A stretch of 63,794 nt of DNA, counting the filler, from Octopus bimaculoides (lineage: Eukaryota): the NCBI RefSeq assembly GCF_001194135.2. It is 7 parts of 7 records of this genome, joined end to end, with 100 filler letters (N's around TTAATTAATTAA, not from the genome) between each part and the next. Parts side by side here need not be neighbours in the genome. Positions count along the whole stretch, not along the records: positions 15,634 to 33,175 come from NC_068984.1; positions 33,276 to 45,276 come from NC_068991.1; positions 45,377 to 52,652 come from NW_026301542.1; positions 52,753 to 58,042 come from NC_069004.1; positions 58,143 to 62,679 come from NC_069005.1; 2 more parts are not named here. One strand, given 5' to 3'. Every line of letters starts with the position of its first letter. The stretch's first letter is position 1. Position numbers and translations under genes: made by a program. Of the stretch, positions 32,891 through 61,850 are shown one piece after another. A model generated the notes under the pieces. The model searched no databases. It worked only from the letters and a program-made list of their open reading frames with translations, and was not told the origin of the DNA.

Positions 32891-32982
32891 TATTTTTTTT
32901 ACTTATTATTTTTATAATTTGTATATATTTATTTTACATTATTTACATTTGACGGATATTTGTCCTCAACTTGTTTGTTGTT

Positions 32983-33028
32983 AACACAATGTTTCGCCTG
33001 ATATACCCTCCAGCCTTCATCAGGTGTC
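32983..33028 (-). ncRNA. Minimal type I hammerhead-ribozyme-like motif (canonical CUGAUGA core) in a short repeat spanning ~32930-33078
   Basis: Minus: GACAC-CUGAUGA-A-GGCUG(GAGGGUAUAU)CAGGC-GAAAC-AUU-GUGUU; stem I 5 bp, stem II with one mismatch. Confidence 0.65.
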
Positions 33029-33095
33029 TTGGGGAAATTTCGAAATTGGGTTCTCATTCCTAAAGTATTTTTCGATGTTGTTGTTGTTGTTGTTG

Positions 33096-33175
<80 letters not shown>

Positions 33176-33275
33176 NNNNNNNNNNNNNNNNNNNNNNNNN
33201 NNNNNNNNNNNNNNNNNNNTTAATTAATTAANNNNNNNNNNNNNNNNNNNNNNNNNNNNNNNNNNNNNNNNNNNN
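33176..33275. other. Artificial scaffold-join spacer
   Basis: 44N-TTAATTAATTAA-44N. Confidence 0.95.
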
Positions 33276-36205
33276 GGTGAAGACCTGGGGTGTGGAAAAA
33301 AGGAAAGAAAGAAAAGGAAAACTGAAAAAGACGAAAGAGAGAAAGAGAAAAGAAAGCAGAAAGGAAGGAAAACAAGAAAGAAACAAAAGAAACTCTTTTT
33401 CCTTCTTTTCTTGGAATGCTTTTATTATATTTTTATGGTCAGCACTTACGTAGGTCTTCGAAGTTAATGACATTTCATGATGTCAGTTTTGATTTTTTGA
33501 AGTCACCTATCTCTCTGCCTCTCTATGTATGCATGTGTGTGTAAGTATGTATGTATCTAGTGAATTTTTGAAGGTTTGGTCAGTGGGATACACGCAGACA
33601 CAACATTTATTCACACACACAAATACACACCTACATATATATTATATTTAGAGGCATCGCATATGTATCCACATACGCTCATACACGCACGCGTACTCGG
33701 ATGCGTGCAAACACGGATGCGCGCACATACACGCGCGCGCAGACACCACGCACATCTGTACCCATGTATATATATTTTATTACATCAAAGTGTTTAAAAG
33801 TTCAGTCGAAGATTGAAAAGGTGATTTCTAATAGCTTTAAGAATGCATGTAGTCATGATTGTAAGATATGAAAGAAATCCAAAGGGGCCAAATGGGATTT
33901 AAAATGTAAACATACACTCGCCCCAAGTTCGATTGATCTCATACAGAAATGATACGATTGGAGAACTTTTGATTATTTCACTCCAAACACATTTCCGACA
34001 AAGGTACAGTACTTGAATGCGTTAACTATGTAAAATTGTGTCCATAGCTTGTGCAATTTCAGTAACTCTCTGCGTTTATTACTTTGCTATAAATATTACC
34101 TTTCTCCCTTTAGTTTCTTCAGTTGAGTGATATCCAAATTCATCGCCTTTATAATATCAATTTTAGTGAGTATTTCTGTACTTTTAGGATGACTTTCAGT
34201 TCGTTGTATTCAACGTATTTTCCGATCAGCTATCATTGCTCAGAATCGTTTTACTGTACTGTATGGAATGTTCCTTTTGATGTGTAAAGGATGGCAAAAG
34301 TAGAAGTCCGATTATTGATGTATGTTGTTTTTATTTTTGTAAAATATACCAGTTGTGACTTTGGAATCGCGTATCTTTAGGAGAACATCTACTGTAAACG
34401 GTAAGTCGTGAATTTGGTAGTTGGTGAAGTGTTGTAAATGTTATTAAATAATTATAGAGGCTATCTTCGTATGAATTTATAATGATGTAAGCGGTAAGAT
34501 TGTTCTAAGTGTGTGATCTAGTCATGTATTTTAAAATCACATTTATACACGAATGATTAAGTCTTCAAATATGGGATCATATGAAAAACATACAATCTAT
34601 AATGGAAGATATAGAAATTAAATATTCTTTCTCAGAGCATTAACGTTGTATCTACTGCCGTCGAGATTACAGTGTTAATGATGCATACCAAAAGGACACT
34701 GGCATATTCTCCTGCCACGTAAGTTTACACGAATAGATCACTGCAGCACTGTACAGACCAACTTGTATTCAAAGCTTCGGATAGAATATTATATAGATAT
34801 TTTCGATCTAGTTTGTATTATTTCTTATCAAATTTGATGGCAAAGAATCCAAACTAGATTGAAAATATCTATATTACTATCTAACACTTTAAAACATTGC
34901 ATTTAACTTTTACAATTGTTAGGGGAATTAACATAAAACACGAATAATTATGAGTTATAGATTAACACTTAGACCTTTTAAAGATTTGAGAAGCAAGCTC
35001 TTAAACTCTCTTAAATGTACACAAAAGTTTAACCATACAAAAACACATACACGCACGCACGCAAGCGCACGCGCCTACACGCACTCACACACACAGACAC
35101 AACATTGAATAGTATTCATACTCTTCTAAGTAAATTGCTAATAATATAATTTATAATACATTTTCCTCATGAAGTATTCAGTTCTAGCTCTATTCAGTGG
35201 AATTATTAATCCCTTTCGTTTCTATATATCGGCTTGAACACTCTATTGTAAGACTTATTGATTCGAATATGTTTTCACTTAGCAATTCCTTGTTTATCAT
35301 GTCTTTTTGAAGCTACCTTAGAGAACAATTAAGTGACAGACTGAAGGAGCAAAAAACTCCACAGGAAAATCTGATTGCAATTACTTAATTATCCGCTCAC
35401 TCTCGTACAATCAAATTGACTNNNNNNNNNNNNNNNNNNNNNNNNNNNNNNNNNNNNNNNNNNNNNNNNNNNNNNNNNNNNNNNNNNNNNNNNNNNNNNN
35501 NNNNNNNNNNNNNNNNNNNNNNNNNNNNNNNNNNNNNNNNNNNNNNNNNNNNNNNNNNNNNNNNNNNNNNNNNNNNNNNNNNNNNNNNNNNNNNNNNNNN
35601 NNNNNNNNNNNNNNNNNNNNNNNNNNNNNNNNNNNNNNNNNNNNNNNNNNNNNNNNNNNNNNNNNNNNNNNNNNNNNNNNNNNNNNNNNNNNNNNNNNNN
35701 NNNNNNNNNNNNNNNNNNNNNNNNNNNNNNNNNNNNNNNNNNNNNNNNNNNNNNNNNNNNNNNNNNNNNNNNNNNNNNNNNNNNNNNNNNNNNNNNNNNN
35801 NNNNNNNNNNNNNNNNNNNNNNNNNNNNNNNNNNNNNNNNNNNNNNNNNNNNNNNNNNNNNNNNNNNNNNNNNNNNNNNNNNNNNNNNNNNNNNNNNNNN
35901 NNNNNNNNNNNNNNNNNNNNNNNNNNNNNNNNNNNNNNNNNNNNNNNNNNNNNNNNNNNNNNNNNNNNNNNNNNNNNNNNNNNNNNNNNNNNNNNNNNNN
36001 NNNNNNNNNNNNNNNNNNNNNNNNNNNNNNNNNNNNNNNNNNNNNNNNNNNNNNNNNNNNNNNNNNNNNNNNNNNNNNNNNNNNNNNNNNNNNNNNNNNN
36101 NNNNNNNNNNNNNNNNNNNNNNNNNNNNNNNNNNNNNNNNNNNNNNNNNNNNNNNNNNNNNNNNNNNNNNNNNNNNNNNNNNNNNNNNNNNNNNNNNATA
36201 TATAT

Positions 36206-36360
36206 GGGAGAATGTACGAAAAAACAACAACAGACGAGGACAGGTGGTGTAAATAACAAAAGGATGTATTAGTATGACGCTCGGGAATACGGAAAGTTTT
36301 TGACGTTTCGAGCTACGCTGTTCAACAAAAATAATACGGAGACAAGGAGAAAAACACACA
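36206..36360 (-). mobile_element. Short hammerhead-bearing PLE pseudo-LTR-like repeat (family H1)
   Basis: Homologous to 61661-61850 and 45130-45276; minus motif UUUU-UGUUGA-A-CAGC(GUA)GCUC-GAAAC-GUC-AAAA at ~36297-36331; end joined to (TA)n. Confidence 0.75.
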
Positions 36361-37677
36361 TTTCTCAACATATTTTTATTTTCAAGGGACACAATGAAGT
36401 TACATTAATGTGAATCTAAATATGCGCTACTTTTCTTTATATTAAATTGGCAAACGATTTTTAATTATTGAATACATATGGAATAATGGATTTCCTCTGT
36501 TACAGCATATCGTATCTGAGAGACGTAAAATATACGTACAAGGCTATTCAATATGCAATATTGGGCTTATCAAGTGTACTTGTTATATAATGTTTTTAAT
36601 ATAACGTTATCTTTGTTTCAGCTCCGTATGAATACATCGTGCAGTATAAGATTAAATATATCCGATATATTCCGTTGCATCTGTGGCTAATGTTCTTTGC
36701 AGAAAGAAAGATAAAATATGACAGACTTCGAAAAAATCATTGCCTACTTGTTGAGGGAAACATCTTAATCGAGATGATGGAAGAGTTCTTACATATTTCT
36801 CAAAACATGTGAAGTTTGCCCATTGCAATAAAAAAAAGTTGTGAAATAAAGTGTTTAGTGTTTGTTGAGATTATAGTTTAGGGAGATAAATGCACACACA
36901 AACATAGGCGCGTGTGCGCGCGTGTGCTATCGAATACTTACTCTAGAATTCGTGACAGATTACAGCAGGGTTTGTGTGCCGTGGATAAGTTCCAGACAAC
37001 TCGTCTTCTAAAACTTTGTCAGACAACAACCTTTATAACTCCAAAGAAGCTAGTGTCCAGAGTTCGTGTACCGTACAGACATTGAGCACAGAAAGCATAA
37101 CCAATATTTAAGCTTTATTAGATACATCAGGTTGTTTGAGAAAGCCGACACCAATAATTACGTAAGCTTAAAGACCCTATTACGCAATACAGTGCAGTCC
37201 GCTCCCTTCGTCAGCTTTATTTTAAAAAATAGAAAAAAAAAAGATAAAAATGGAAATACAGAGCCTTACAATACCAGTATGAATTTAACTGCAATTAGGA
37301 TATCAAAGAAGAATGGAAGAAAGGAAGAATGTAGTGGGAACGTAAAAGAAACTTACAGGAAAATGTGACGAGAAGAAAGGAAATCCAGCAAAGCCACGCT
37401 GCAACATACGCAAACACCTTCGTCTAATCCCAGATACACAAATATGGTTGGTGGTAAAAGGGGAGAAAGAAAGAGTTAGATTCCAGGCAGTATTGTATGA
37501 AAAGCAAAGATAATAATATTGATTTCTTATTAATAACAACTGTAAAATGAAACATAACAAAAATAATAGCAATAATAACAGCAAGAACCGTAATAGTAAA
37601 ATCGACGAACTACCTGTAGAGAATTGTAAACAAAGCCATAAGCAAAATGTTTATAACAATAACAGTTCAAATATTAA

Positions 37678-37795
37678 CCATTTAAACCTGACCTCCTGAA
37701 CCATATTTTAACGTATACCTGGCACTCCGCCGTTGTCACGTTTTAGAGAAACATAAGCCACCCACCGGTAAAATGGTGTTACGGCCTAAAAAGGG
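37678..37795. mobile_element. Possible piggyBac-like MITE
   Basis: TTAA|CCATTTAAACC...GGCCTAAAAAGGG|TTAA: imperfect short TIRs with TTAA on both sides. Confidence 0.4.
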
Positions 37796-37809
37796 TTAAT
37801 CATGATTTC

Positions 37810-38040
37810 ATGTTTGGGCACAAGGCCAGCGATCTCGAGGGAGGAGGTAAATCGATTACATTGACGCCAGTGTACCAGTGTTCAACTGCTACTTATTTTA
37901 TCGACCCCGAAGGGTTGGAAGGCAAAGTCGACGTTAGTGGAACTTGAACTCACAAGGTTCTGGGCCGATCTGCTCGACTAAAGGCAGTGCTCCAGCATGA
38001 CCGCAGTCATATGACTGAAACAAATAAAAGAATAAAAGAA
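37810..38040. mobile_element. SINE B fragment (-) joined to SINE A tail (+)
   Basis: ATCGACCCCGAAGGG...GGCAAAGTCGAC, then TGCTCGACTAAAGGCAGTGCTCCAGCATG. Confidence 0.75.
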
Positions 38041-51530: not shown

Positions 51531-51580
<50 letters not shown>

Positions 51581-51581
<1 letters not shown>

Positions 51582-51722
51582 TCATGTTTGACTTTTGCTT
51601 TGCATTTGTACAAGTTCGATCCAAGTCTCACCCAGAGACCTCAAGAGACAACAAGTTAGAAGTTCATGTAGGTGTTATGCTTAGGGTACAATATATTTCG
51701 ATTTGTACATAGTGTTCTAGAA
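51581..51722 (-). mobile_element. Probable 3' UTR of another (TAA)n-tailed LINE
   Basis: Minus ...GGTCTCTGGGTGAGACTTGG...GCAAAAGTCAAACATGAA runs into (ATA)n, tail to tail with the previous element. Confidence 0.5.
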
Positions 51723-51774
51723 AATTTATTATTATTATCATTATCATTAGTATTATTATTATCATCATCATTAT

Positions 51775-52269
51775 TAGTTTATAGAGAGGACTGGAAACTC
51801 AGCAGAAATGTAATAGATAGATAGATGAGTTCTTAACTTTTGTATACGATTGCCAAATTCCATCACTAAGGTAAACATAGCTGACGTAATCCATCACTAC
51901 GGCGAACCCAATGACAAAAGCGCAACTCGAAAGTAACTTATTTATTGGTCCTTTGAACAATATTTCGACATCTCGTGTGTCTTCAACGGGTTCAAAATAA
52001 AATAAATGTCAGTCTAATTCATTTTTAGTTTATAGAGAGGACTGGAAACTCAGCTGAAATGTAGTAGATAGATAGATGAGTTTTTATAGCCGTTGAAGAC
52101 ACACGAGATGTCGAAATATTGTTGTTCAAAGGACCAATAAATAAGTTAGTTTCGAGTTGCGCTTTTTGTCATTGAGTTGGCCGTAGTGATGGATTACGTC
52201 AGCTATGTTTACCTTAGTGATGGAATTTGGCAATCGTATACAAAAGTTAAGAACTCATCTATTTATCTA

Positions 52270-52270
<1 letters not shown>
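51775..52270. mobile_element. Fold-back element (~177-bp inverted arms plus 57-bp direct repeat) inserted in (ATT)n
   Basis: 51813-51989 is the near-perfect reverse complement of 52090-52270; 51775-51831 repeats at 52026-52082. Confidence 0.85.
51952..51996 (-). ncRNA. Minimal hammerhead-like fold, variant core, 7-bp stem I
   Basis: Minus: UUUGAAC-CCGUUGA-A-GACA(CACGAGA)UGUC-GAAAU-AUU-GUUCAAA. Confidence 0.6.
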
Positions 52271-52329
<59 letters not shown>

Positions 52330-52331
<2 letters not shown>

Positions 52332-52652
52332 ACTGAGAGAACAGAGCATGCCATCAAAGTGACACCAGTCTGATAAGTGTACACCAGGCTCATGCATCAC
52401 ACCCATATGTGTGCGACATGGTAATCTCATATCAGGATAAACAGCGCATAAACAGTGCAAGTGGGGCCCAGTTAGCATTTTCTTCAGGTTGAGAACATAG
52501 AAAAAATAGCAAAGTAAAATGATCTAGTGCTTGAATTACAGTGACTATGGAAAGTGTAGGTAAAATTCATCCCAGTAGTTATAGGTTCATTGGGATCTAA
52601 CCCTAAAGGACTGAACAGATGAACAGAGGAAATTGCATAAAACCCAGTTTAG
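52330..52652. mobile_element. Family D fragment (-) fused to a third R4-like 3' segment (+)
   Basis: 52330-52492 matches family D; 52495-52652 matches ~50590-50742. Confidence 0.8.
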
Positions 52653-52752
52653 NNNNNNNNNNNNNNNNNNNNNNNNNNNNNNNNNNNNNNNNNNNNTTAA
52701 TTAATTAANNNNNNNNNNNNNNNNNNNNNNNNNNNNNNNNNNNNNNNNNNNN
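52653..52752. other. Artificial scaffold-join spacer
   Basis: 44N-TTAATTAATTAA-44N. Confidence 0.95.
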
Positions 52753-52809
<57 letters not shown>

Positions 52810-54671
52810 TGTATATGTATGTACACATGAGTGTGTGTGTGTGTGTGTGTGTGCTTGTTGGTTTCTGTAAGTTTCTTGTGTGAGTGCGTGTTTACACACT
52901 CTTTCTATCTCCCTCTCTCACACACACACACACACATTCTGTCTCTACCACACACACACACACACAGACACGCACACACGCAAATATATAGACGCGCACA
53001 CACACACACACACACGTATGTATATACACACACGCACACACAAATCACGTGCCACTGGTATGTGTTCATATGTGTTTGTGTGTGTGTGTGTGTGTGTTTA
53101 TGGGTAATGTGTAAGTAGAATGCGCTGCTCTACATTCAAATGTAAACTTGTGTGCCTGCACGAGCATAAATGTGTGTGTGTGTGTGTGTGTTCATATACA
53201 TACGTGTGTGTGTGTGTGTGTGTGCGTATGTGCATATGCCTGTGTGTTTGTGTATTTAACCAGGAGATTGTAAACACAATCGAAAGCAGCGAGGCACGTG
53301 AGAGAATCCCTCTGTTCTCTTACTACTCCCCCCCCACCAAACACCTCCCTTTACTGTTGACTTTCAAGGCCGGCTTTAATGTTTTGCGCATGCGTGTCTT
53401 CTTTGCCTTTTTTTTTGCCATTCTTTGTTTTTTTTTGTTGTTTTTTGCACTGTCACCCCCCGTCACCCCTCTCTTCCTTCCCACTCCACCACTCGTCTTA
53501 GATCGGTTTTCTTAATTAGTAAATGAATTACAGATTATCGAACGCGCGCACGCACAGCCCTGCACACACACACACACACNNNNNNNNNNNNNNNNNNNNN
53601 NNNNNNNNNNNNNNNNNNNNNNNNNNNNNNNNNNNNNNNNNNNNNNNNNNNNNNNNNNNNNNNNNNNNNNNNNNNNNNNNNNNNNNNNNNNNNNNNNNNN
53701 NNNNNNNNNNNNNNNNNNNNNNNNNNNNNNNNNNNNNNNNNNNNNNNNNNNNNNNNNNNNNNNNNNNNNNNNNNNNNNNNNNNNNNNNNNNNNNNNNNNN
53801 NNNNNNNNNNNNNNNNNNNNNNNNNNNNNNNNNNNNNNNNNNNNNNNNNNNNNNNNNNNNNNNNNNNNNNNNNNNNNNNNNNNNNNNNNNNNNNNNNNNN
53901 NNNNNNNNNNNNNNNNNNNNNNNNNNNNNNNNNNNNNNNNNNNNNNNNNNNNNNNNNNNNNNNNNNNNNNNNNNNNNNNNNNNNNNNNNNNNNNNNNNNN
54001 NNNNNNNNNNNNNNNNNNNNNNNNNNNNNNNNNNNNNNNNNNNNNNNNNNNNNNNNNNNNNNNNNNNNNNNNNNNNNNNNNNNNNNNNNNNNNNNNNNNN
54101 NNNNNNNNNNNNNNNNNNNNNNNNNNNNNNNNNACAAAGTGACAATTGAAGAGGGTGGGGTTAAAATTTTTAAATGCTAGGTTTTTCTTTTTTCTTTTTG
54201 CAGAATCAGAATCTCCGTACTCGAAAATGGGGTGGGTGTTAAAAAGAGAACAAAAAAAAAAACGAAAGGGGGTGCAGTCCACATTCTTTACGTCCACCCC
54301 ACTGAGCCTTCGGGTGCATGCCTATACGTAGACTCATACATGTGCCTGAGTATGGGACCCATAGAACTTCAGAGTGCCTTGCCACAGGTAATCTAAGATA
54401 CGGTATAAAACCACATATCACCGTTAGGAACGCAAATAGGGGCAGTGTTTCTACCTCACTTGATCACAGGTGGCCAAACACAAGACGTGGCAATGGTGTT
54501 GAAGGTGCGTAGAAATCAAATGAAATAAACAGCTATGCACGCTGATGGCGGTGCTCCAGCATGGTCAGGACCTGGTTGAAACTTGTGAAACTATGAGGCG
54601 GGTGCACACACACACACACGTCGTAGCGCACCCCCCATCTCCAGTTTCCGTTCACTCACAAAGCGTTGGTC

Positions 54672-54782
54672 GGCCTGAAGTTAGAGTAGAAGACCCCTGC
54701 TCACGGTTCCACGCAGCGGGACTGAAACCGGAGCTATGTGGTTTGGAAGTAAACTTTTTACCGCACAGCCATACCTGCACCT
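54672..54782 (-). mobile_element. SINE family A head, degenerate
   Basis: CCACGCAGCGGGACTGAAACCGGAGCTATGTGG...CGCACAGCCATACCTGCACC. Confidence 0.7.
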
Positions 54783-55689
54783 TTGTGTGTGTGTATGTAT
54801 GTATATATATATANNNNNNNNNNNNNNNNNNNNNNNNNNNNNNNNNNNNNNNNNNNNNNNNNNNNNNNNNNNNNNNNNNNNNNNNNNNNNNNNNNNNNNN
54901 NNNNNNNNNNNNNNNNNNNNNNNNNNNNNNNNNNNNNNNNNNNNNNNNNNNNNNNNNNNNNNNNNNNNNNNNNNNNNNNNNNNNNNNNNNNNNNNNNNNN
55001 NNNNNNNNNNNNNNNNTATATATATCCTTACATATACACACACATCACATACGATAGTCCCCATCACCACCACCACCCGTTGCAAATTACCAAACTCACT
55101 CACAAGACATTTCCAAGATCTTGTAAAAGGCAGGTGTACAATTGTAGAGAAACAAAATCGCAAAAATTTTCAATATGTTTGTTTTTGATATTTTGAAATG
55201 TGTTATTTAGTCTTTTTTTTTTTATATATTTTTCCTTTTTTCTTTTTTTCAAAACTGTTTACTTAGTGTATTTCGTTCGTTGTAATTCAACAAAATATTC
55301 TCATTTCAATGACAGTTAATATATTTCTTTATGTAAATTCTGGCGCCACTTATTGGCCAGTATAGCTCAGCTGTTTAGACCTTTACATGGATCACCTGAT
55401 GTCCCCTATTTCGACCTCGTGTTTTATTTTTCAAATTCATTTTCTTAATCGAAATTCGTTTTAGTTTGATTTGGTAGTGTAAGAAGACAGAAGACGACAT
55501 TTGTTCGTTTTTCTCTGTCGCATCGGCACATATCACACACGAATTTACTGTGTGGGCGAGTGCTCTTCCTGTCGCCGATCCTTGCCTTCTCCAAGCAAGG
55601 AAATAATTGTACAAGACTGCGCATGTCTTTACGGAAGATTACGGGGAAATGGAACCCCTTGTATGGCTGTGACTCTTCTTGGAAATTAT

Positions 55690-55815
55690 CAACTTTGCCT
55701 TCCATCCTTTCGGGGTCGATGAAAATAAGTACCAGTTATGCACTGGGGTCGATGTAATCGATTAGCCCCCTCCCCAATAATTTCAGGCTTTGTGTTTATA
55801 GCAGAAAGGATTATT
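55690..55815 (+). mobile_element. SINE family B 3' part
   Basis: AACTTTGCCTTCCATCCTTTCGGGGTCGATG...GCACTGGGGTCGATGTAATCGA. Confidence 0.85.
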
Positions 55816-55969
55816 ATTGTTGTTGTTGTTGTTGTTATTATTATTGGCTTTTAGATGAGAGTCCCTCACATGTTTTGGGATTTCACTGCTTTTCCTTCCA
55901 GGTGAAGCTTTTGCATTATCCTAGGGTCACGTTTGATGGATTGAGGGTGTGAAAAGCACCCTGTCAACT

Positions 55970-56001
<32 letters not shown>

Positions 56002-56034
56002 CGAATGTGGGTGGTGCATGTCATCTTAATATTT

Positions 56035-56250
56035 TAAGTGAAGCAGTGAGCTTGGTAAAATCGTCAACGCGTCGGGAAAAATGCTTCACCGCATTTCTCC
56101 GACTTGACGATCCGAGTTCAAAATGCGCTGGGGTCGACTTAGGGCCTTCATCTTTCTGGGATCGATAACATAAGCATCAGTTGAATAATGGGGTCGATGT
56201 AATCGTCTTGTCCCTTCCCCGAAATTGCTGGCCCTATGCCATGCCGAAAT
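56035..56250 (+). mobile_element. SINE family B
   Basis: GAGTTCAAAAT...GGTCGACTT...GGGGTCGATGTAATCG...GAAATTGCTGGCC. Confidence 0.75.
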
Positions 56251-56781
56251 TAGAAAAAAAATATTTTGGGTGGTAATATATTTCTAAGAGTTATGCTATC
56301 CACTTTGTGTTGTTCTTTCTCTCTCTTGTTTTTTTAAATTTTTTTTTAAAATACGGTTTGTTGTGATTTGAGGTTCAGCTATCGAAGTGACCTCACCTTC
56401 ACCTTTGTTTTGTGAACTTAGATAATTCCTTGGGTGCGGCTCGGTTTCACGAGGCAGNNNNNNNNNNNNNNNNNNNNNNNNNNNNNNNNNNNNNNNNNNN
56501 NNNNNNNNNNNNNNNNNNNNNNNNNNNNNNNNNNNNNNNNNNNNNNNNNNNNNNNNNNNNNNNNNNNNNNNNNNNNNNNNNNNNNNNNNNNNNNNNNNNN
56601 NNNNNNNNNNNNNNNNNNNNNNNNNNNNNNNNNNNNNNNNNNNNNNNNNNNNNNNNNNNNNNNNNNNNNNNNNNNNNNNNNNNNNNNNNNNNNNNNNNNN
56701 NNNNNNNNNNNNNNNNNNNNNNNNNNNNNNNNNNNNNNNNNNNNNNNNNNNNNNNNNNNNNNNNNNNNNNNNNNNNNNNNN

Positions 56782-57085
56782 CCCCACCACCCACTTTCCA
56801 TTCTCCGACCCAGTTTCATGTCCACGACGCAATTTCCACCTTGAAACCAACTTCCCCACTCTCCGAGACCCATTTTAATTTCCACAGCCCAGTTTCCACG
56901 CACACGACCCAGTTTAATTCTCCACCGTCCAGTTTCCACTCCACGCAGTCAGTTCCTATTCCCACGACCCAGTTTCACCCCCACAGCACAATTTACCGCA
57001 CGCAAGCACAAGCTTGCACCCCGACGGCTCATGTTCCGCTCCCCGGAGCCATTTCCATCCCCGTGGCCCAGTTCCCCAATTTTCA
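56782..57085. repeat. Degenerate ~20-bp minisatellite with CCCAGTTT(C)CA core
   Basis: About 12-14 diverged units such as ACGACCCAGTTT, AGCCCAGTTTCCA and GTCCAGTTTCCA. Confidence 0.7.
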
Positions 57086-57158
57086 ACGCAGCCTCTCTCT
57101 CCTCCCCCGTTCTCATTGTTCTTCTTGCTAATTAAGAACTTCCTTCTCAGCTATTCCT

Positions 57159-57194
<36 letters not shown>

Positions 57195-57975
57195 ATTCAC
57201 AGAGCATGACCCCTCTCCCTCTCTCATTCATAGAAACATTACACTAACCCACTTGTCTTTCTCATTCATAGATCCACGTCCTCATACAATCTCTCTCTTT
57301 CTCTCTCTCTCATATTATCCTTCCTGTCTCTAATTACCCTTCGCTTATTCTAGCTCACTCAAGCCTTTGTAAGTGCGTATATATTTATTATATACACATA
57401 CTGGTGTGTATAAGTATATTTATACGCTCAAATATGCACGGTCCTTTATATACGTTTTCATAGTTTTTGTTGTCGACTTAGGAATATATATATATGTATG
57501 TATGTATAGTCACTGATTCTATCTATCTATCTATCTATCTATCACAAGTGTGTGAGTATGGATCTATGTATGTATACACGTATGTATATGTGTGTATATG
57601 TGCATCTAATGAGCCTGTATATGCACACATGCATACATATACAGAAAACTTTATATACATCTGCAATTGTACGCATGGAGACTATCCTATTTATGCTTGC
57701 TTGTGTGTGTGTGTTTTTGTGTGTGTGTATATATATATATATGTGTACACTGTACATACATCCTCTCGTCAGAAAATTGTTGATGGTGCGCGTACACATA
57801 CTCACGCACACAAACGCACACACGGTTTTGTGCAGTGTACATACACTCCTCTGCGGTCACATGCTTCACGTGATTTTCACATAGCAGTTGCCATGGATAC
57901 ACCGGCTTTTTGCTAGGGTCAGAAGGCAAGCGACATAAACATACTCGCGCGCGCGTACACACAGACACACACGCG

Positions 57976-58042
<67 letters not shown>

Positions 58043-58142
58043 NNNNNNNNNNNNNNNNNNNNNNNNNNNNNNNNNNNNNNNNNNNNTTAATTAATTAANN
58101 NNNNNNNNNNNNNNNNNNNNNNNNNNNNNNNNNNNNNNNNNN
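58043..58142. other. Artificial scaffold-join spacer
   Basis: 44N-TTAATTAATTAA-44N. Confidence 0.95.
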
Positions 58143-58211
58143 TATATATATATAGATATATTTATATATAGGAGTGTATTGTAGTTGGCTTGAAGCATTG
58201 TGTGTTGTTTG

Positions 58212-58337
58212 TAAAGAATAAAAAGTTTTGAATGGTACAACAATGCACTATAAAACAAAAAATGGACTATATACCTGTTTGTAGTCCATTATTTGTATTA
58301 TAGTGCATTGTTGTACCATTCAAAACTTTTTATTCTT

Positions 58338-58339
<2 letters not shown>
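58212..58339. repeat. Near-perfect 58-bp-arm hairpin (inverted repeat)
   Basis: 58212-58269 vs 58282-58339 with 2 mismatches and a 12-nt loop. Confidence 0.9.
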
Positions 58340-58370
<31 letters not shown>

Positions 58371-58447
58371 CTTTGTGTCTATGTGCCAGATGAACATAGA
58401 CACAAAGACATATACACACACATACATACATATAACTATATATATAT

Positions 58448-58612
58448 ACGACGGGCTTCTTTCAGTTTCCGTCTACCAAATCCACTCACAAGGCTTTGGT
58501 TGGCCCGAGGCTATAGCAGATTACTCTTGCCCAAAGTGCCACACAGTGGGACTGAACCCGGAACCATGTGGTTGGTAAGCAAGCTACTTATCACACAGCC
58601 ACTCCTATGCCT
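58448..58612 (-). mobile_element. SINE family A head, young
   Basis: GGGCTTCTTTCAGTTTCCGTCTACCAAATCCACTCACAAGGCTTTGG...GAACCCGGAACCATGTGG. Confidence 0.9.
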
Positions 58613-59050
58613 ATCTGTAAATGTATTTCTATGTCCCTATTTGTATTAGCTTATGTGTGTCCTTGTTAATAAATATTTACGCATCTGGGTGTATGAGAAT
58701 AAAATGCCTTGTCATATTGTTCGACAGAAAAAAGATGGATGAATTGAAGTTACATTTTAACCGAGCTTCTATCAAACTTGACAGATACATACATACAAAT
58801 AAACTTTTAAATTTGAATGTTATTGAAATAAATTAAATTTGAATTAAATTAATTTTAGATTAACAATAGATAATGGAACTCCTGACTTAGTAAATTGTAA
58901 TTCATCATATTATACGGATCCTCGTTGTTTGGCAAAGGAAATTAAATAAGCTGTATAATTTTGTGTGTATTTGTGTTTATTGTTTGTGTGTGTATATATG
59001 TGTATATAATGCACAAACATATATACATGTATGTATGTGTATATCTATGC

Positions 59051-59094
<44 letters not shown>

Positions 59095-60538
59095 NNNNNN
59101 NNNNNNNNNNNNNNNNNNNNNNNNNNNNNNNNNNNNNNNNNNNNNNNNNNNNNNNNNNNNNNNNNNNNNNNNNNNNNNNNNNNNNNNNNNNNNNNNNNNN
59201 NNNNNNNNNNNNNNNNNNNNNNNNNNNNNNNNNNNNNNNNNNNNNNNNNNNNNNNNNNNNNNNNNNNNNNNNNNNNNNNNNNNNNNNNNNNNNNNNNNNN
59301 NNNNNNNNNNNNNNNNNNNNNNNNNNNNNNNNNNNNNNNNNNNNNNNNNNNNNNNNNNNNNNNNNNNNNNNNNNNNNNNNNNNNNNNNNNNNNNNNNNNN
59401 NNNNNNNNNNNNNNNNNNNNNNNNNNNNNNNNNNNNNNNNNNNNNNNNNNNNNNNNNNNNNNNNNNNNNNNNNNNNNNNNNNNNNNNNNNNNNNNNNNNN
59501 NNNNNNNNNNNNNNNNNNNNNNNNNNNNNNNNNNNNNNNNNNNNNNNNNNNNNNNNNNNNNNNNNNNNNNNNNNNNNNNNNNNNNNNNNNNNNNNNNNNN
59601 NNNNNNNNNNNNNNNNNNNNNNNNNNNNNNNNNNNNNNNNNNNNNNNNNNNNNNNNNNNNNNNNNNNNNNNNNNNNNNNNNNNNNNNNNNNNNNNNNNNN
59701 NNNNNNNNNNNNNNNNNNNNNNNNNNNNNNNNNNNNNNNNNNNNNNNNNNNNNTATATATATATGTAAGTATAAGTATGAGCATATACATACATATATAT
59801 ATATGTGGGTATGTGTGTATTCACTATGTAATATGTTTACACATACACATGTGTGTAGAAATATTAAAGGCACTCACATATAGTTACTACTCTCATATCC
59901 CTCTACACAGAAGAAAGAAAACATGCACACATCTGTAAACACACACATACACACTCATATATAAATACACACACAATATCATACAAGGTTGTAGTAACTG
60001 TTATTCCTATACACCAAATGTTCCTCCTCTTTCTCTTCTCATCTTCTAGGCTTCTCTCTCTGCTTGTCTATCTGTCTGTCTGTTTGTCTCTGTCAGTCTG
60101 TTTGTCTCTGTCTGTTACAAATGTTCTCTATATTTCTTCTTTTTCTTCCTCACTATTCCTTTGTCCTCTTCTTCCTTAATTCTACCCCCATTTCTCTTTC
60201 TTCTAGTCTGATTTCTCTCTTTTCAGCATCATCTATGTTCTTCCTGTTTACTCTCCCTTCCTCTATCTTTCATACTCTCTTTCCCACCCAATCTCTCATT
60301 CTTACTTTCTCAGACACCTTTGCTTTCTGTAAAAAGATAGAAATTATTTTTCAGTGTTCATAAAATAACTAACAACATTCTTTGGTTTTGAGGCTTCTGT
60401 GGCTCAGAAATGCATAAAGTATTTTAGACAAAACGGCTGTCAGTGAACCTGAGTTCTAATATTCTTAAGCTATAATGGAATGTATTCATTAAATTCTTGG
60501 TACACACATGCTGCTAAGCAGATTCTCAATTTTAAAAG

Positions 60539-60570
<32 letters not shown>

Positions 60571-60788
60571 GGTATATAGTTTTAGGGAAAAGAACCAAGG
60601 TTCATGAACTCATTGATGCAAATCCACTGTCACGTAAACATAAAATATATAGTTTCCCTAAAACTACATATTTATATATATTTTACTGTGAAACTTAATT
60701 TAATTTTAATTTTTAATAAATTGATTTTTATTGAGTTTTTACCGGTAATTTTGGATTTTATCCCTAATATTATTATTATATATATATA

Positions 60789-60828
60789 GGGAGAATTCAC
60801 AAAAACACAAAAGACGAAGAAAGGTGGT
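60789..60828 (-). mobile_element. H1 repeat terminus, interrupted by the RTE-type insertion
   Basis: (TA)n|GGGAGAATTCACAAAAACAC...GGTGGT; same terminus as at 36206 and 61661. Confidence 0.6.
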
Positions 60829-60830
60829 CA

Positions 60831-61084
60831 TCATCACCATCATCGTCGTTTAACGCCCGCCTTCCATGCTAGCATGGCTTGGACAATTTGATTGAGGACT
60901 GGCGAACCAGATGGCTGCACCAGGCTCCAATCTGATTTCGCAGAGTTTCTACAGCTGGATGTCTTTCCTAATGCCAACCACTCCGAGAGTGTAGTGGGTG
61001 CTTTTACGTGCCACCGGCACAAAGGCCAGTCAGGCAGTACTGGCAATGGCCATGCTGAAAATGGTGTGTTTTACGTGCCACCTG
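60831..61084 (-). mobile_element. RTE-type LINE 3' end or RTE-dependent SINE with (GAT)n tail
   Basis: GGATGTCTTTCCTAATGCCAACCAC RTE 3'-UTR-like motif; CATCAT tail at the left end. Confidence 0.7.
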
Positions 61085-61626
61085 NNNNNNNNNNNNNNNN
61101 NNNNNNNNNNNNNNNNNNNNNNNNNNNNNNNNNNNNNNNNNNNNNNNNNNNNNNNNNNNNNNNNNNNNNNNNNNNNNNNNNNNNNNNNNNNNNNNNNNNN
61201 NNNNNNNNNNNNNNNNNNNNNNNNNNNNNNATATATACAGATATGAGTGTGTAAACGCCGGTGTTTTAATGGTGGCAGCTGATGAAGGATATGTTCTCTA
61301 TGTGGCCTGCTTGTTTTTTGTACCTTGTTTATCATTTTGTCCATGTTCTTTTGCAACGTCATGTACCCAGATATGTATCTATATGTACATGTAGATGAAG
61401 GTATGTACATACATGTACATATATATGCATATACTCATATATTGTTTATATATATATATATAAACATATATATTTAGATATGCATGTATATACATATATA
61501 ACCATATATATTGGGGGGAGGGGTACAGATATGAATTTGTTCATTTGATGCTTGTTTATATGTGCACATTTGTATGCATGTACTTGCACACAAATGCAAA
61601 TATAATGCATGCACACACACACACAT

Positions 61627-61660
<34 letters not shown>

Positions 61661-61850
61661 GGGAGAATATACGAAAAAACAACAACAGACGAGGACAGGT
61701 GGTGTAAATAACAAAAGGATGTATTAGTATGACGCTCGGGAATACGGAAAGTCTTTGATGTTTCGAGCTACGCTCTTCAACAGAAAGAATACGGAAACAA
61801 GGAGAAAAACACGGAGAAAAAAAATTGAATAGTGTCCAGTCAACGGTCAA
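61661..61850 (-). mobile_element. H1 hammerhead-bearing repeat, full copy between (TA)n runs
   Basis: Homologous to 36206-36360 and 45130-45276. Confidence 0.8.
61753..61787 (-). ncRNA. Minimal hammerhead-like motif, A6U core
   Basis: Minus: CUUU-CUGUUGA-A-GAGC(GUA)GCUC-GAAAC-AUC-AAAG. Confidence 0.6.

What the first reader, a model, noticed from the sequence alone, without database searches (positions are those of the whole stretch)
32983..61787. Recurring non-canonical minimal hammerhead ribozymes across unrelated short repeat families
Seen: five complete folds share the architecture stem I - core - extra A - stem II - GAAA - loopless stem III - NUH - stem I. They are 32983-33028(-), ~36297-36331(-), 45170-45205(+), 51952-51996(-) and 61753-61787(-); 52090-52125(+) is a copy of the 51952 motif lacking the 5' strand of stem I, and ~49190-49225(+) is a degenerate sixth. 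Stems I and II differ completely between families, yet the pairing is kept. All except the 33-kb copy have U at core position 6 (CUGUUGA, UUGUUGA, CUGUGGA, CCGUUGA). Known: PLE pseudo-LTRs carry minimal type I hammerheads with palindromic stem III that are thought to cleave as dimers, and A6 is normally conserved. Inference: this lineage may have a family-wide A6U + extra-A hammerhead variant, active, dimer-dependent or attenuated, spread by short non-autonomous carriers. I do not know of this combination being described for cephalopods.
Basis: partly seen in the sequence, partly recalled or inferred. Interest (0 to 1): 0.75.

Follow-up and report, generated by a model that had tools for sequence, protein, structure and literature searches.

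The report
Penelope hammerheads with fixed U6 core
Two abundant jumping-gene families in an octopus genome carry a small hammerhead RNA motif in which one normally fixed catalytic-core letter is changed (A to U) in most copies; in the larger family the rest of the core stays fixed, so it is likely a slow, helper-dependent variant, but cutting is untested.

Summary
The motifs are real minimal type I hammerheads of Penelope-like element (PLE) ends, but the window holds three families, not five. Family A (36297, 45170, 61753) is the 3' end of an RT/GIY-YIG PLE whose ORF end lies at 43047-43560. B (51952/52090) is one inverted insertion. C (32983) is canonical. The extra A is the published norm. 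U6 is not decay: family A has 5,696 exact U6 matches against 39 A6, and 85 of 88 flank-anchored copies carry U6, none A6. Across A subfamilies only N7, H17 (U/A/C, never G) and loop length vary: 0 of 30 constrained columns against 31 of 65 flank columns. That points to selection on the hammerhead fold. U6 is not lineage-wide: two canonical-A6 patterns give about 13,000 matches, including A's sister family. B has U6 and compensatory stem changes but also drifts at position 4. RNA reads show no cut-site ends for A or the canonical control. Published mutagenesis predicts low activity. I found no A6U in print, but a key paper was unavailable; this scan noted A6U and A6C PLE hammerheads in other genomes. 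New variant of a known kind.

The parts
45170..45205 (+). Family A minimal hammerhead, complete: stem I CUUU/AAAG, core CUGUGGA (U6, N7=G), extra A, stem II GAGC/GCUC, GAAA, palindromic ACGU, H17=U; predicted cut after 45201
   Evidence: cut site inferred from hammerhead numbering
43047..43820 (+). 3' end of the parent PLE ORF (CX4CxxC linker plus GIY-YIG, broken) and start of its pyrimidine/CA-rich 3' UTR
44946..45274 (+). Distal 3' UTR of the same PLE, carrying the 45170 motif; separated from the ORF end by an N gap and a nested insertion
   Evidence: 80-86% identical to the distal UTR of four ORF-bearing relatives
61661..61850 (-). Family A, young short subfamily (about 190 nt, ends in (TA)n); motif 61753-61787 with U6 and a C15.2/A16.2 mismatch
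36198..36359 (-). Family A copy, 96% identical to the 61.7-kb copy; motif 36297-36331 with U6 and copy-specific U3 and C10.1
51783..52270 (.). Family B insertion with inverted arms, flanked by (ATT)n; motifs 51952-51996(-) and 52090-52125(+, 5' strand of stem I missing); U6, C4
32941..33067 (-). Family C copy, canonical core CUGAUGA plus extra A (motif 32983-33028), two copy-specific mismatches; internal canonical control
46700..49330 (+). Broken full-length PLE (element D: RT, CxxC linker, GIY-YIG)
49190..49225 (+). Hairpin with CUGUUGA in the 3' UTR of element D; family majority state; lacks G12; not accepted as a hammerhead

Best explanation
These are minimal type I hammerhead motifs at the 3' ends of Penelope-like retroelements; in two families core position 6 is U in most copies, and in the larger one every other core position stays fixed, so the motif is likely kept by selection as a slow ribozyme that would need dimer formation and the element's own protein to cut. 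Shown: family A is the terminal part of an RT/GIY-YIG PLE, U6 has persisted from its oldest to its youngest subfamily, and only the positions a hammerhead leaves free have changed. Inferred: A6U arose from an A6 ancestor, once in A and separately in B. It weakens the CUGA U-turn but was tolerated because these loop-less hammerheads are slow and assisted anyway, and cutting does not limit transposition. The palindrome (ACGU in A, AUAU in B) would let two motifs in a tandem transcript pair and cut after GUH or AUH.
For: U6 fixed in A: 5,696 vs 39 exact matches; 85 U, 2 C, 1 G, 0 A in 88 copies picked by a downstream flank (93 picked, 5 truncated ones dropped). Ten sampled A6 copies do not form one clade; the five shown in the tree lie among U6 subfamilies. 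Selection pattern: a minor allele of 10% or more in 0 of 30 constrained columns vs 31 of 65 flank columns (Fisher p 6e-7; right flank only 17 of 43, p 3e-5). N7 is U55/G16/C15/A2 and H17 is U34/A27/C27/G0. At constrained columns the minor copies are nearly all singletons (steps about equal to copies); at 7 and 17 they are inherited (33 copies/15 steps, 54/10). Subfamily identity spans 81% to 98%. Parent PLE: motif 400-1160 nt downstream of the GIY-YIG end, same strand, in 9 of 30 loci, 0 on the other strand; 0.3 expected. The A6 sister family differs by a compensatory stem I swap. B stem II has two pairs with changes on both sides, 100% paired, on 13 hand-picked copies. Tandem copies exist. 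Literature: PLE minimal hammerheads cut weakly and only as dimers (PMC4209133). The Anolis PLE hammerhead cuts only with PLE protein, and its catalytic mutants still insert (PMC11167929). Natural A6C keeps low but detectable activity (PMC3088659; PMC7151607).
Against: No cleavage data. In a complete single and double mutant scan of a type III hammerhead, all CUGA-region mutants except the C-G swap had low activity and were not rescued (PMC9901934 passages; the A6U value itself not seen). RNA reads span the predicted site without a pile-up of ends, though the canonical control behaves the same. Family B also varies at position 4 (A4 in 27 of 33 listed copies), has an A4/A6 subgroup (7 of 39 copies have A6, none with U4), and has duplications in stem III. 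That looks like loss of the U-turn constraint; three A copies share U4A too. A fold kept for protein binding would fix much the same bases. Nothing shows selection FOR U6: about half of flank columns are also unchanged. Tree support for the U6 clade is only 51. Columns and copies are not independent events, and the 88 copies all come from the first 13 Mb of one chromosome.
Confidence: 0.5

Rival explanations
1. The U6 motif no longer cuts. The hammerhead fold is kept as a structural or protein-binding signal in the PLE 3' end, for example for loading the RT/endonuclease.
For: Core mutants are expected to be nearly inactive. Hammerhead catalytic mutants do not impair PLE insertion in vitro. B drifts at positions 4 and 6 while keeping stems. 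Element D keeps a hairpin with a compensatory change but lacks G12.
Against: In A the catalytic G8 and G12 are fixed, and H17 follows the cleavage rule (three states, never G, 10 steps). Catalysis predicts this pattern; pure binding does not require it.
Confidence: 0.3
2. The motif is a dead passenger: A6U killed it in a master copy, and it spread with the element without further constraint.
For: PLE clades without canonical hammerheads proliferate well (PMC8557442). Short lineages can keep 35 nt unchanged by chance.
Against: 0 of 30 constrained vs 31 of 65 flank columns vary across subfamilies that are only 81% alike within the oldest group; the changes fall on N7, H17 and loop II. B stems show compensatory changes.
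Confidence: 0.08
3. A6U is itself selected, as a brake or an ion-dependent switch: slower cutting spares the full-length template, or cutting becomes Mn2+-dependent as for A6C.
For: U6 arose in two unrelated families here, and the scan noted position-6 changes in other genomes (unchecked). A6C shifts preference to Mn2+. Family A is very abundant (12,183 flank matches).
Against: Canonical family C is comparably abundant, and most families keep A6. No test here separates selected from tolerated.
Confidence: 0.12

Closest known systems
[quoted passage not shown]
   Same: Short stem I, an extra nucleotide between A9 and G10.1, G10.1-C11.1, loop-less palindromic stem III, NUH site, position after the GIY-YIG ORF, thousands of solitary truncated copies, inverted pairs
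   Different: The published consensus is CUGANGAH; all 44 rows I saw have A6 (the descriptor required it). The core variant described in the text is U3-A8. Families A and B have U6.
Natural A6C hammerhead of phage Bcep176 (Perreault et al. 2011, PMC3088659, passages and section 8; Naghdi et al. 2020, PMC7151607, passages)
   Same: Natural substitution at core position 6; low but detectable cleavage
   Different: C rather than U; a single phage ribozyme, not a high-copy retroelement family; activity measured there, not here
Protein-assisted hammerhead of the Anolis Poseidon PLE (PMC11167929, passages)
   Same: PLE hammerhead; no read ends at the cut site in public RNA-seq
   Different: C3 and G8 conserved and cleavage shown with protein. 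The parent of A has a CX4CxxC linker, the type PMC8557442 describes for Neptune/Nematis; clade not tested by a tree.
Short-stem-III hammerhead variants of PLEs (Lunse, Weinberg and Breaker, RNA Biol 14:1499; seen only as a reference entry)
   Same: By title: PLE-associated small variants that cleave as dimers
   Different: Could not be read; it may already list position-6 variants
Metazoan non-LTR retrozymes (PMC7229834, passages; bioRxiv 10.64898/2026.07.22.740005, part 1 of 5)
   Same: Some B copies form head-to-tail units of about 152 bp
   Different: A and the window's B copy are dispersed PLE-type ends with minimal motifs; no circles shown

Membership tests
PLE minimal hammerhead (min-HHR) | Located in the pLTR/3' end of an RT + GIY-YIG element | tested here: met
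   Family A: 9 of 30 GIY-YIG loci have it downstream on the same strand; window 43047-45274 is one element. No parent ORF found for B or C in the loci held.
PLE minimal hammerhead (min-HHR) | Extra nucleotide between A9 and 10.1; G10.1-C11.1 pair | tested here: met
   A86/87, G85/87, C80/88 in family A; invariant in the 13 aligned B copies
PLE minimal hammerhead (min-HHR) | Loop-less palindromic stem III followed by NUH | tested here: met
   ACGU with H17 = U/A/C, never G, in 88 A copies; AUAU in B
PLE minimal hammerhead (min-HHR) | Stems I and II pair | tested here: met
   compensatory swap between A and its sister family
Canonical hammerhead core | C3 U4 G5 A6 N7 G8 A9 | tested here: not met
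   U6 in A and B; also A4 in much of B. Met by family C.
Canonical hammerhead core | G12 A13 A14 A15.1-U16.1 | tested here: met
   Families A, B, C. Not met by the 49190 motif, which has C at 12.
Hammerhead ribozyme (functional) | Site-specific self-cleavage 3' of H17 | not testable with these tools
   RNA-seq shows no end pile-up for A or for the canonical control, so the test is uninformative
Non-LTR retrozyme | Tandem non-coding units each with a hammerhead | tested here: inconclusive
   Some B copies in 152-bp tandems; A mostly solitary, a few pairs per 100 listed
Non-LTR retrozyme | Circular RNA closed at the cut site | tested here: inconclusive
   The back-joints in reads (1601 to 1482; 1639 to 1593) are not at the cut site (1574/1575); the first matches a 122-bp genomic tandem spacing
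Neptune clade PLE | CX2-5CxxC linker before a C-terminal GIY-YIG; RT phylogeny | tested here: inconclusive
   Linker and C-terminal GIY-YIG present; no tree with reference clades was made

The most novel reading that the evidence does not exclude
A retroelement lineage has run through several waves of amplification on a hammerhead that lacks the U-turn adenine. This would be either because its own RT/endonuclease protein supplies the missing contact (a protein-completed ribozyme core) or because the hammerhead has become a non-cutting RNA handle for that protein. The repeated position-6 changes in unrelated PLE families would then mark what PLE hammerheads are really selected for.
Probability: 0.3. 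Interest if true: 0.7.

Novelty: new variant of a known kind. Interest (0 to 1): 0.45.

Why it matters
What PLE hammerheads do is an open question: they cut poorly, need protein, and can be mutated without loss of insertion in vitro. Family A and its A6 sister family form a natural matched pair with the same stem II and homologous flanks. The U6 side keeps every other hammerhead rule across old and young subfamilies. Assaying that pair would show whether selection acts on cutting or on the fold. It also shows that descriptor searches requiring CUGANGA miss thousands of such motifs in this genome. It is not a new ribozyme class or a new kind of element.

Tried and rejected
Rfam scan: no hammerhead among the 150 of 250 matches shown; microsatellite noise. 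Repeat finder: swamped by microsatellites and N runs. An apparent 'A6G family' (CUGGUGAC) from a relaxed pattern is mariner-type transposase coding sequence (family name recalled from the translated motif) and was rejected; relaxed patterns do give false families. Other U6 families: the pattern for U6/N7=U with stems not starting GA gave 220 hits against 70 controls, mostly mutated A, B or C copies; U6 with N7 other than U outside A was not searched. The 49190 motif was rejected as a hammerhead. No parent ORF was found for B or C in the loci held. Sequencing-run search: no RNA holder listed. Two raw RNA-seq runs of the same species label were laid anyway: 2,649 and 2,691 reads on A and 5,390 and 4,337 on C from about 6% of each run, both orientations equally, no end pile-up in either. 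This is uninformative on cleavage and does not show transcription from the element's own promoter. One contig in a run labelled organism B matches A with U6; a single contig, not counted as cross-species evidence. Metagenome scan for the A motif: 0 hits. Folding energies: the hammerhead monomer (-3.7 kcal/mol) and a hand-drawn dimer (-5.7) are less stable than the minimum-energy folds (-6.2, -19.1), so they give no support. ARAGORN found no tRNA in 10 loci, most with family C copies. Pfam missed most PLE fragments; PLE identity rests on homologues and a profile built from them. Literature searches that found no natural A6U hammerhead. Supplementary file 1 of PMC4209133 and the supplements of PMC9901934 were not read, and the Lunse paper was not held; any of them may bear on novelty or on the A6U rate.
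Full report
Setting. The window is a pack of stretches from a 2.34-Gb genome. The nearest named relatives of its retroelement protein are from Octopus species at 85% and 72%, so I call it an octopus genome.

Observation. All seven strings are present. A strict descriptor with position 6 free finds only 45170 in the window and four motifs in 0.70 Mb of evenly spaced genome (80 stretches), with none in shuffles. Self-comparison shows 36297, 45170 and 61753 are one family, A. 51952 and 52090 are the arms of one inverted insertion, B, and 32983 is a canonical family, C. A, B and C share no flank similarity. The architecture, including the extra nucleotide after A9, G10.1-C11.1 and the palindromic loop-less stem III, is the published consensus of PLE minimal hammerheads (PMC4209133). 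Only U6 departs from it.

U6 is the family state. Exact genome-wide patterns for family A give 5,696 matches with U6 and 39 with A6, controls 0. To avoid selecting on the core I sampled copies by a downstream flank motif (12,183 matches). I took 93 copies from the first 13 Mb of C1 and dropped 5 truncated before the motif: position 6 is U 85, C 2, G 1, A 0. Of ten sampled A6 copies, eight entered a flank-only tree and are spread among U6 subfamilies rather than forming one clade. An unselected sample gives 10 A-like hits in 0.70 Mb; of 8 with a visible core, 6 have U6 and 2 belong to an A6 sister family. For B, 32 of the 33 B-type rows among the first 100 listed have U6 and 27 have A4 (my count). 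Among 39 B copies held, 7 have A6, none of them with U4.

U6 is not lineage-wide. Canonical patterns give 7,179 matches with N7=U, nearly all family C among the first 100, and 5,983 with other N7, from many families (controls 57 and 264). One of them is a sister of A with the same stem II, homologous flanks and a compensatory swap in stem I. It falls outside the U6 copies in the tree, with weak support (51). That A6 is ancestral therefore rests mainly on A6 being the general state.

What carries it. Window 43047-43820 is the broken 3' end of a PLE ORF (CX4CxxC linker, GIY-YIG). In 9 of 30 relatives the A motif lies 400-1160 nt downstream on the same strand and never on the other (0.3 expected). 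Many of the remaining loci are truncated or gapped downstream. All nine have U6, with N7 = G, U, C or A. Window 43047-43820 and 44946-45274 align collinearly to such relatives, so 45170 ends that element. The many short copies end in (TA)n, and the youngest share a 5' boundary. They are truncated ends or a non-autonomous offshoot. No parent was found for B or C.

Selection signal. Across A subfamilies (mean identity 98%, 87% and 81%), no constrained column of the motif has a minor allele of 10% or more (0 of 30), against 31 of 65 flank columns (p 6e-7). Using only the better-aligned right flank it is 17 of 43 (p 3e-5). Inherited variation is confined to N7 (four states), H17 (U, A, C; no G) and loop II length, plus one three-copy U4A group. 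RNA reads agree: between positions 1536 and 1584 of the laid copy, the only variant at 5% or more is at H17. B shows two compensatory pairs in stem II on 13 hand-picked copies, but it drifts at position 4 and in stem III. These counts are of related copies, not independent events.

Mechanism. Shown: location, fixation of U6, and the pattern of constraint. From the literature: PLE minimal hammerheads cut weakly and only as dimers. The Anolis one needs PLE protein, and its catalytic mutants still insert in vitro. A6C is slow but active and prefers Mn2+. CUGA-region mutants of a type III hammerhead are of low activity and not rescued by second mutations. The NUH rule is from PMC12192606. That A6 holds the U-turn through a purine-specific contact is recalled, not checked. 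Inferred: A6U weakens an already slow, assisted ribozyme whose cutting does not limit transposition, so it was tolerated while the remaining core stayed under selection (0.5). A non-cutting fold kept for protein binding is the main rival (0.3). RNA-seq cannot decide, since neither A nor canonical C shows ends at the site.

The sixth site. 49190 follows the GIY-YIG end of a broken full-length PLE at about 46700-49330. Thirty relatives read almost the same, and the hairpin has one compensatory change, but G12 is C and stem I is unconvincing. Related ORF-bearing lineages carry recognisable minimal hammerheads with U3-A8 or A3-U8 and A6.

Novelty. Eight literature searches found no natural A6U hammerhead and no description of these motifs in octopus. 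The most relevant survey (Lunse et al.) could not be read, and several supplements were not seen. Earlier notes of this scan report a fixed A6U core and a fixed A6C core in PLE hammerheads of other genomes, and PLE ends with hammerheads elsewhere in this genome (unchecked). Verdict: new variant of a known kind, interest 0.45.

Noticed in passing
L181, L183, L185, L193, L240, L208, L210, L214 (U3-A8); L194, L198, L200, L216, L219, L222, L230, L243, L221, L245 (A3-U8): ORF-bearing PLE lineages related to element D carry minimal hammerheads just after the GIY-YIG ORF with swapped 3-8 pairs, including A3-U8, several with an ACCGGU palindrome and one with a 2-bp stem II; all keep A6. I did not see A3-U8 in the passages read.
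   Followed up: partly
family C, e.g. L098, L110, L116, L124, L140; window 32941-33067: 13 of 50 family C copies have a tRNA-like head with A- and B-box-like motifs (read by eye) upstream of an (AAT)n spacer and the hammerhead-bearing tail: probably a tRNA-headed SINE with a PLE-type end. ARAGORN calls no tRNA.
   Followed up: partly
L159/L160; G000 C1:46651079-46651566, C1:51776564-51776746, C1:56705178-56705360: A B subfamily with core CAGUUGA occurs in head-to-tail units of about 152 bp, a retrozyme-like layout.
   Followed up: partly
window 44600-44830 (+): Broken C-terminus resembling another PLE-type endonuclease region (recalled resemblance), nested in the 3' UTR of the family A parent.
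   Followed up: no
window 34112-34445 (-): Decayed fragment of a PLE RT (profile hit E 9e-11).
   Followed up: no
L290:3655-3815: RNA reads on family C show many A>G and T>C differences largely absent from contigs of a run of unrecorded kind, consistent with A-to-I editing of inverted copies; not a same-individual comparison.
   Followed up: no
L103, L106, L123, L126 around 1500: A small repeat family has a U6-like core with GAAACGUU but no adjacent stem I, and a second canonical-looking CUGAUGA about 40 nt upstream in some copies.
   Followed up: no
L137, L142, L152, L153: Abundant mariner-type transposase copies contain a chance hammerhead-like string (CUGGUGAC ... GAAAUGUU) that relaxed descriptors pick up.
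   Followed up: yes
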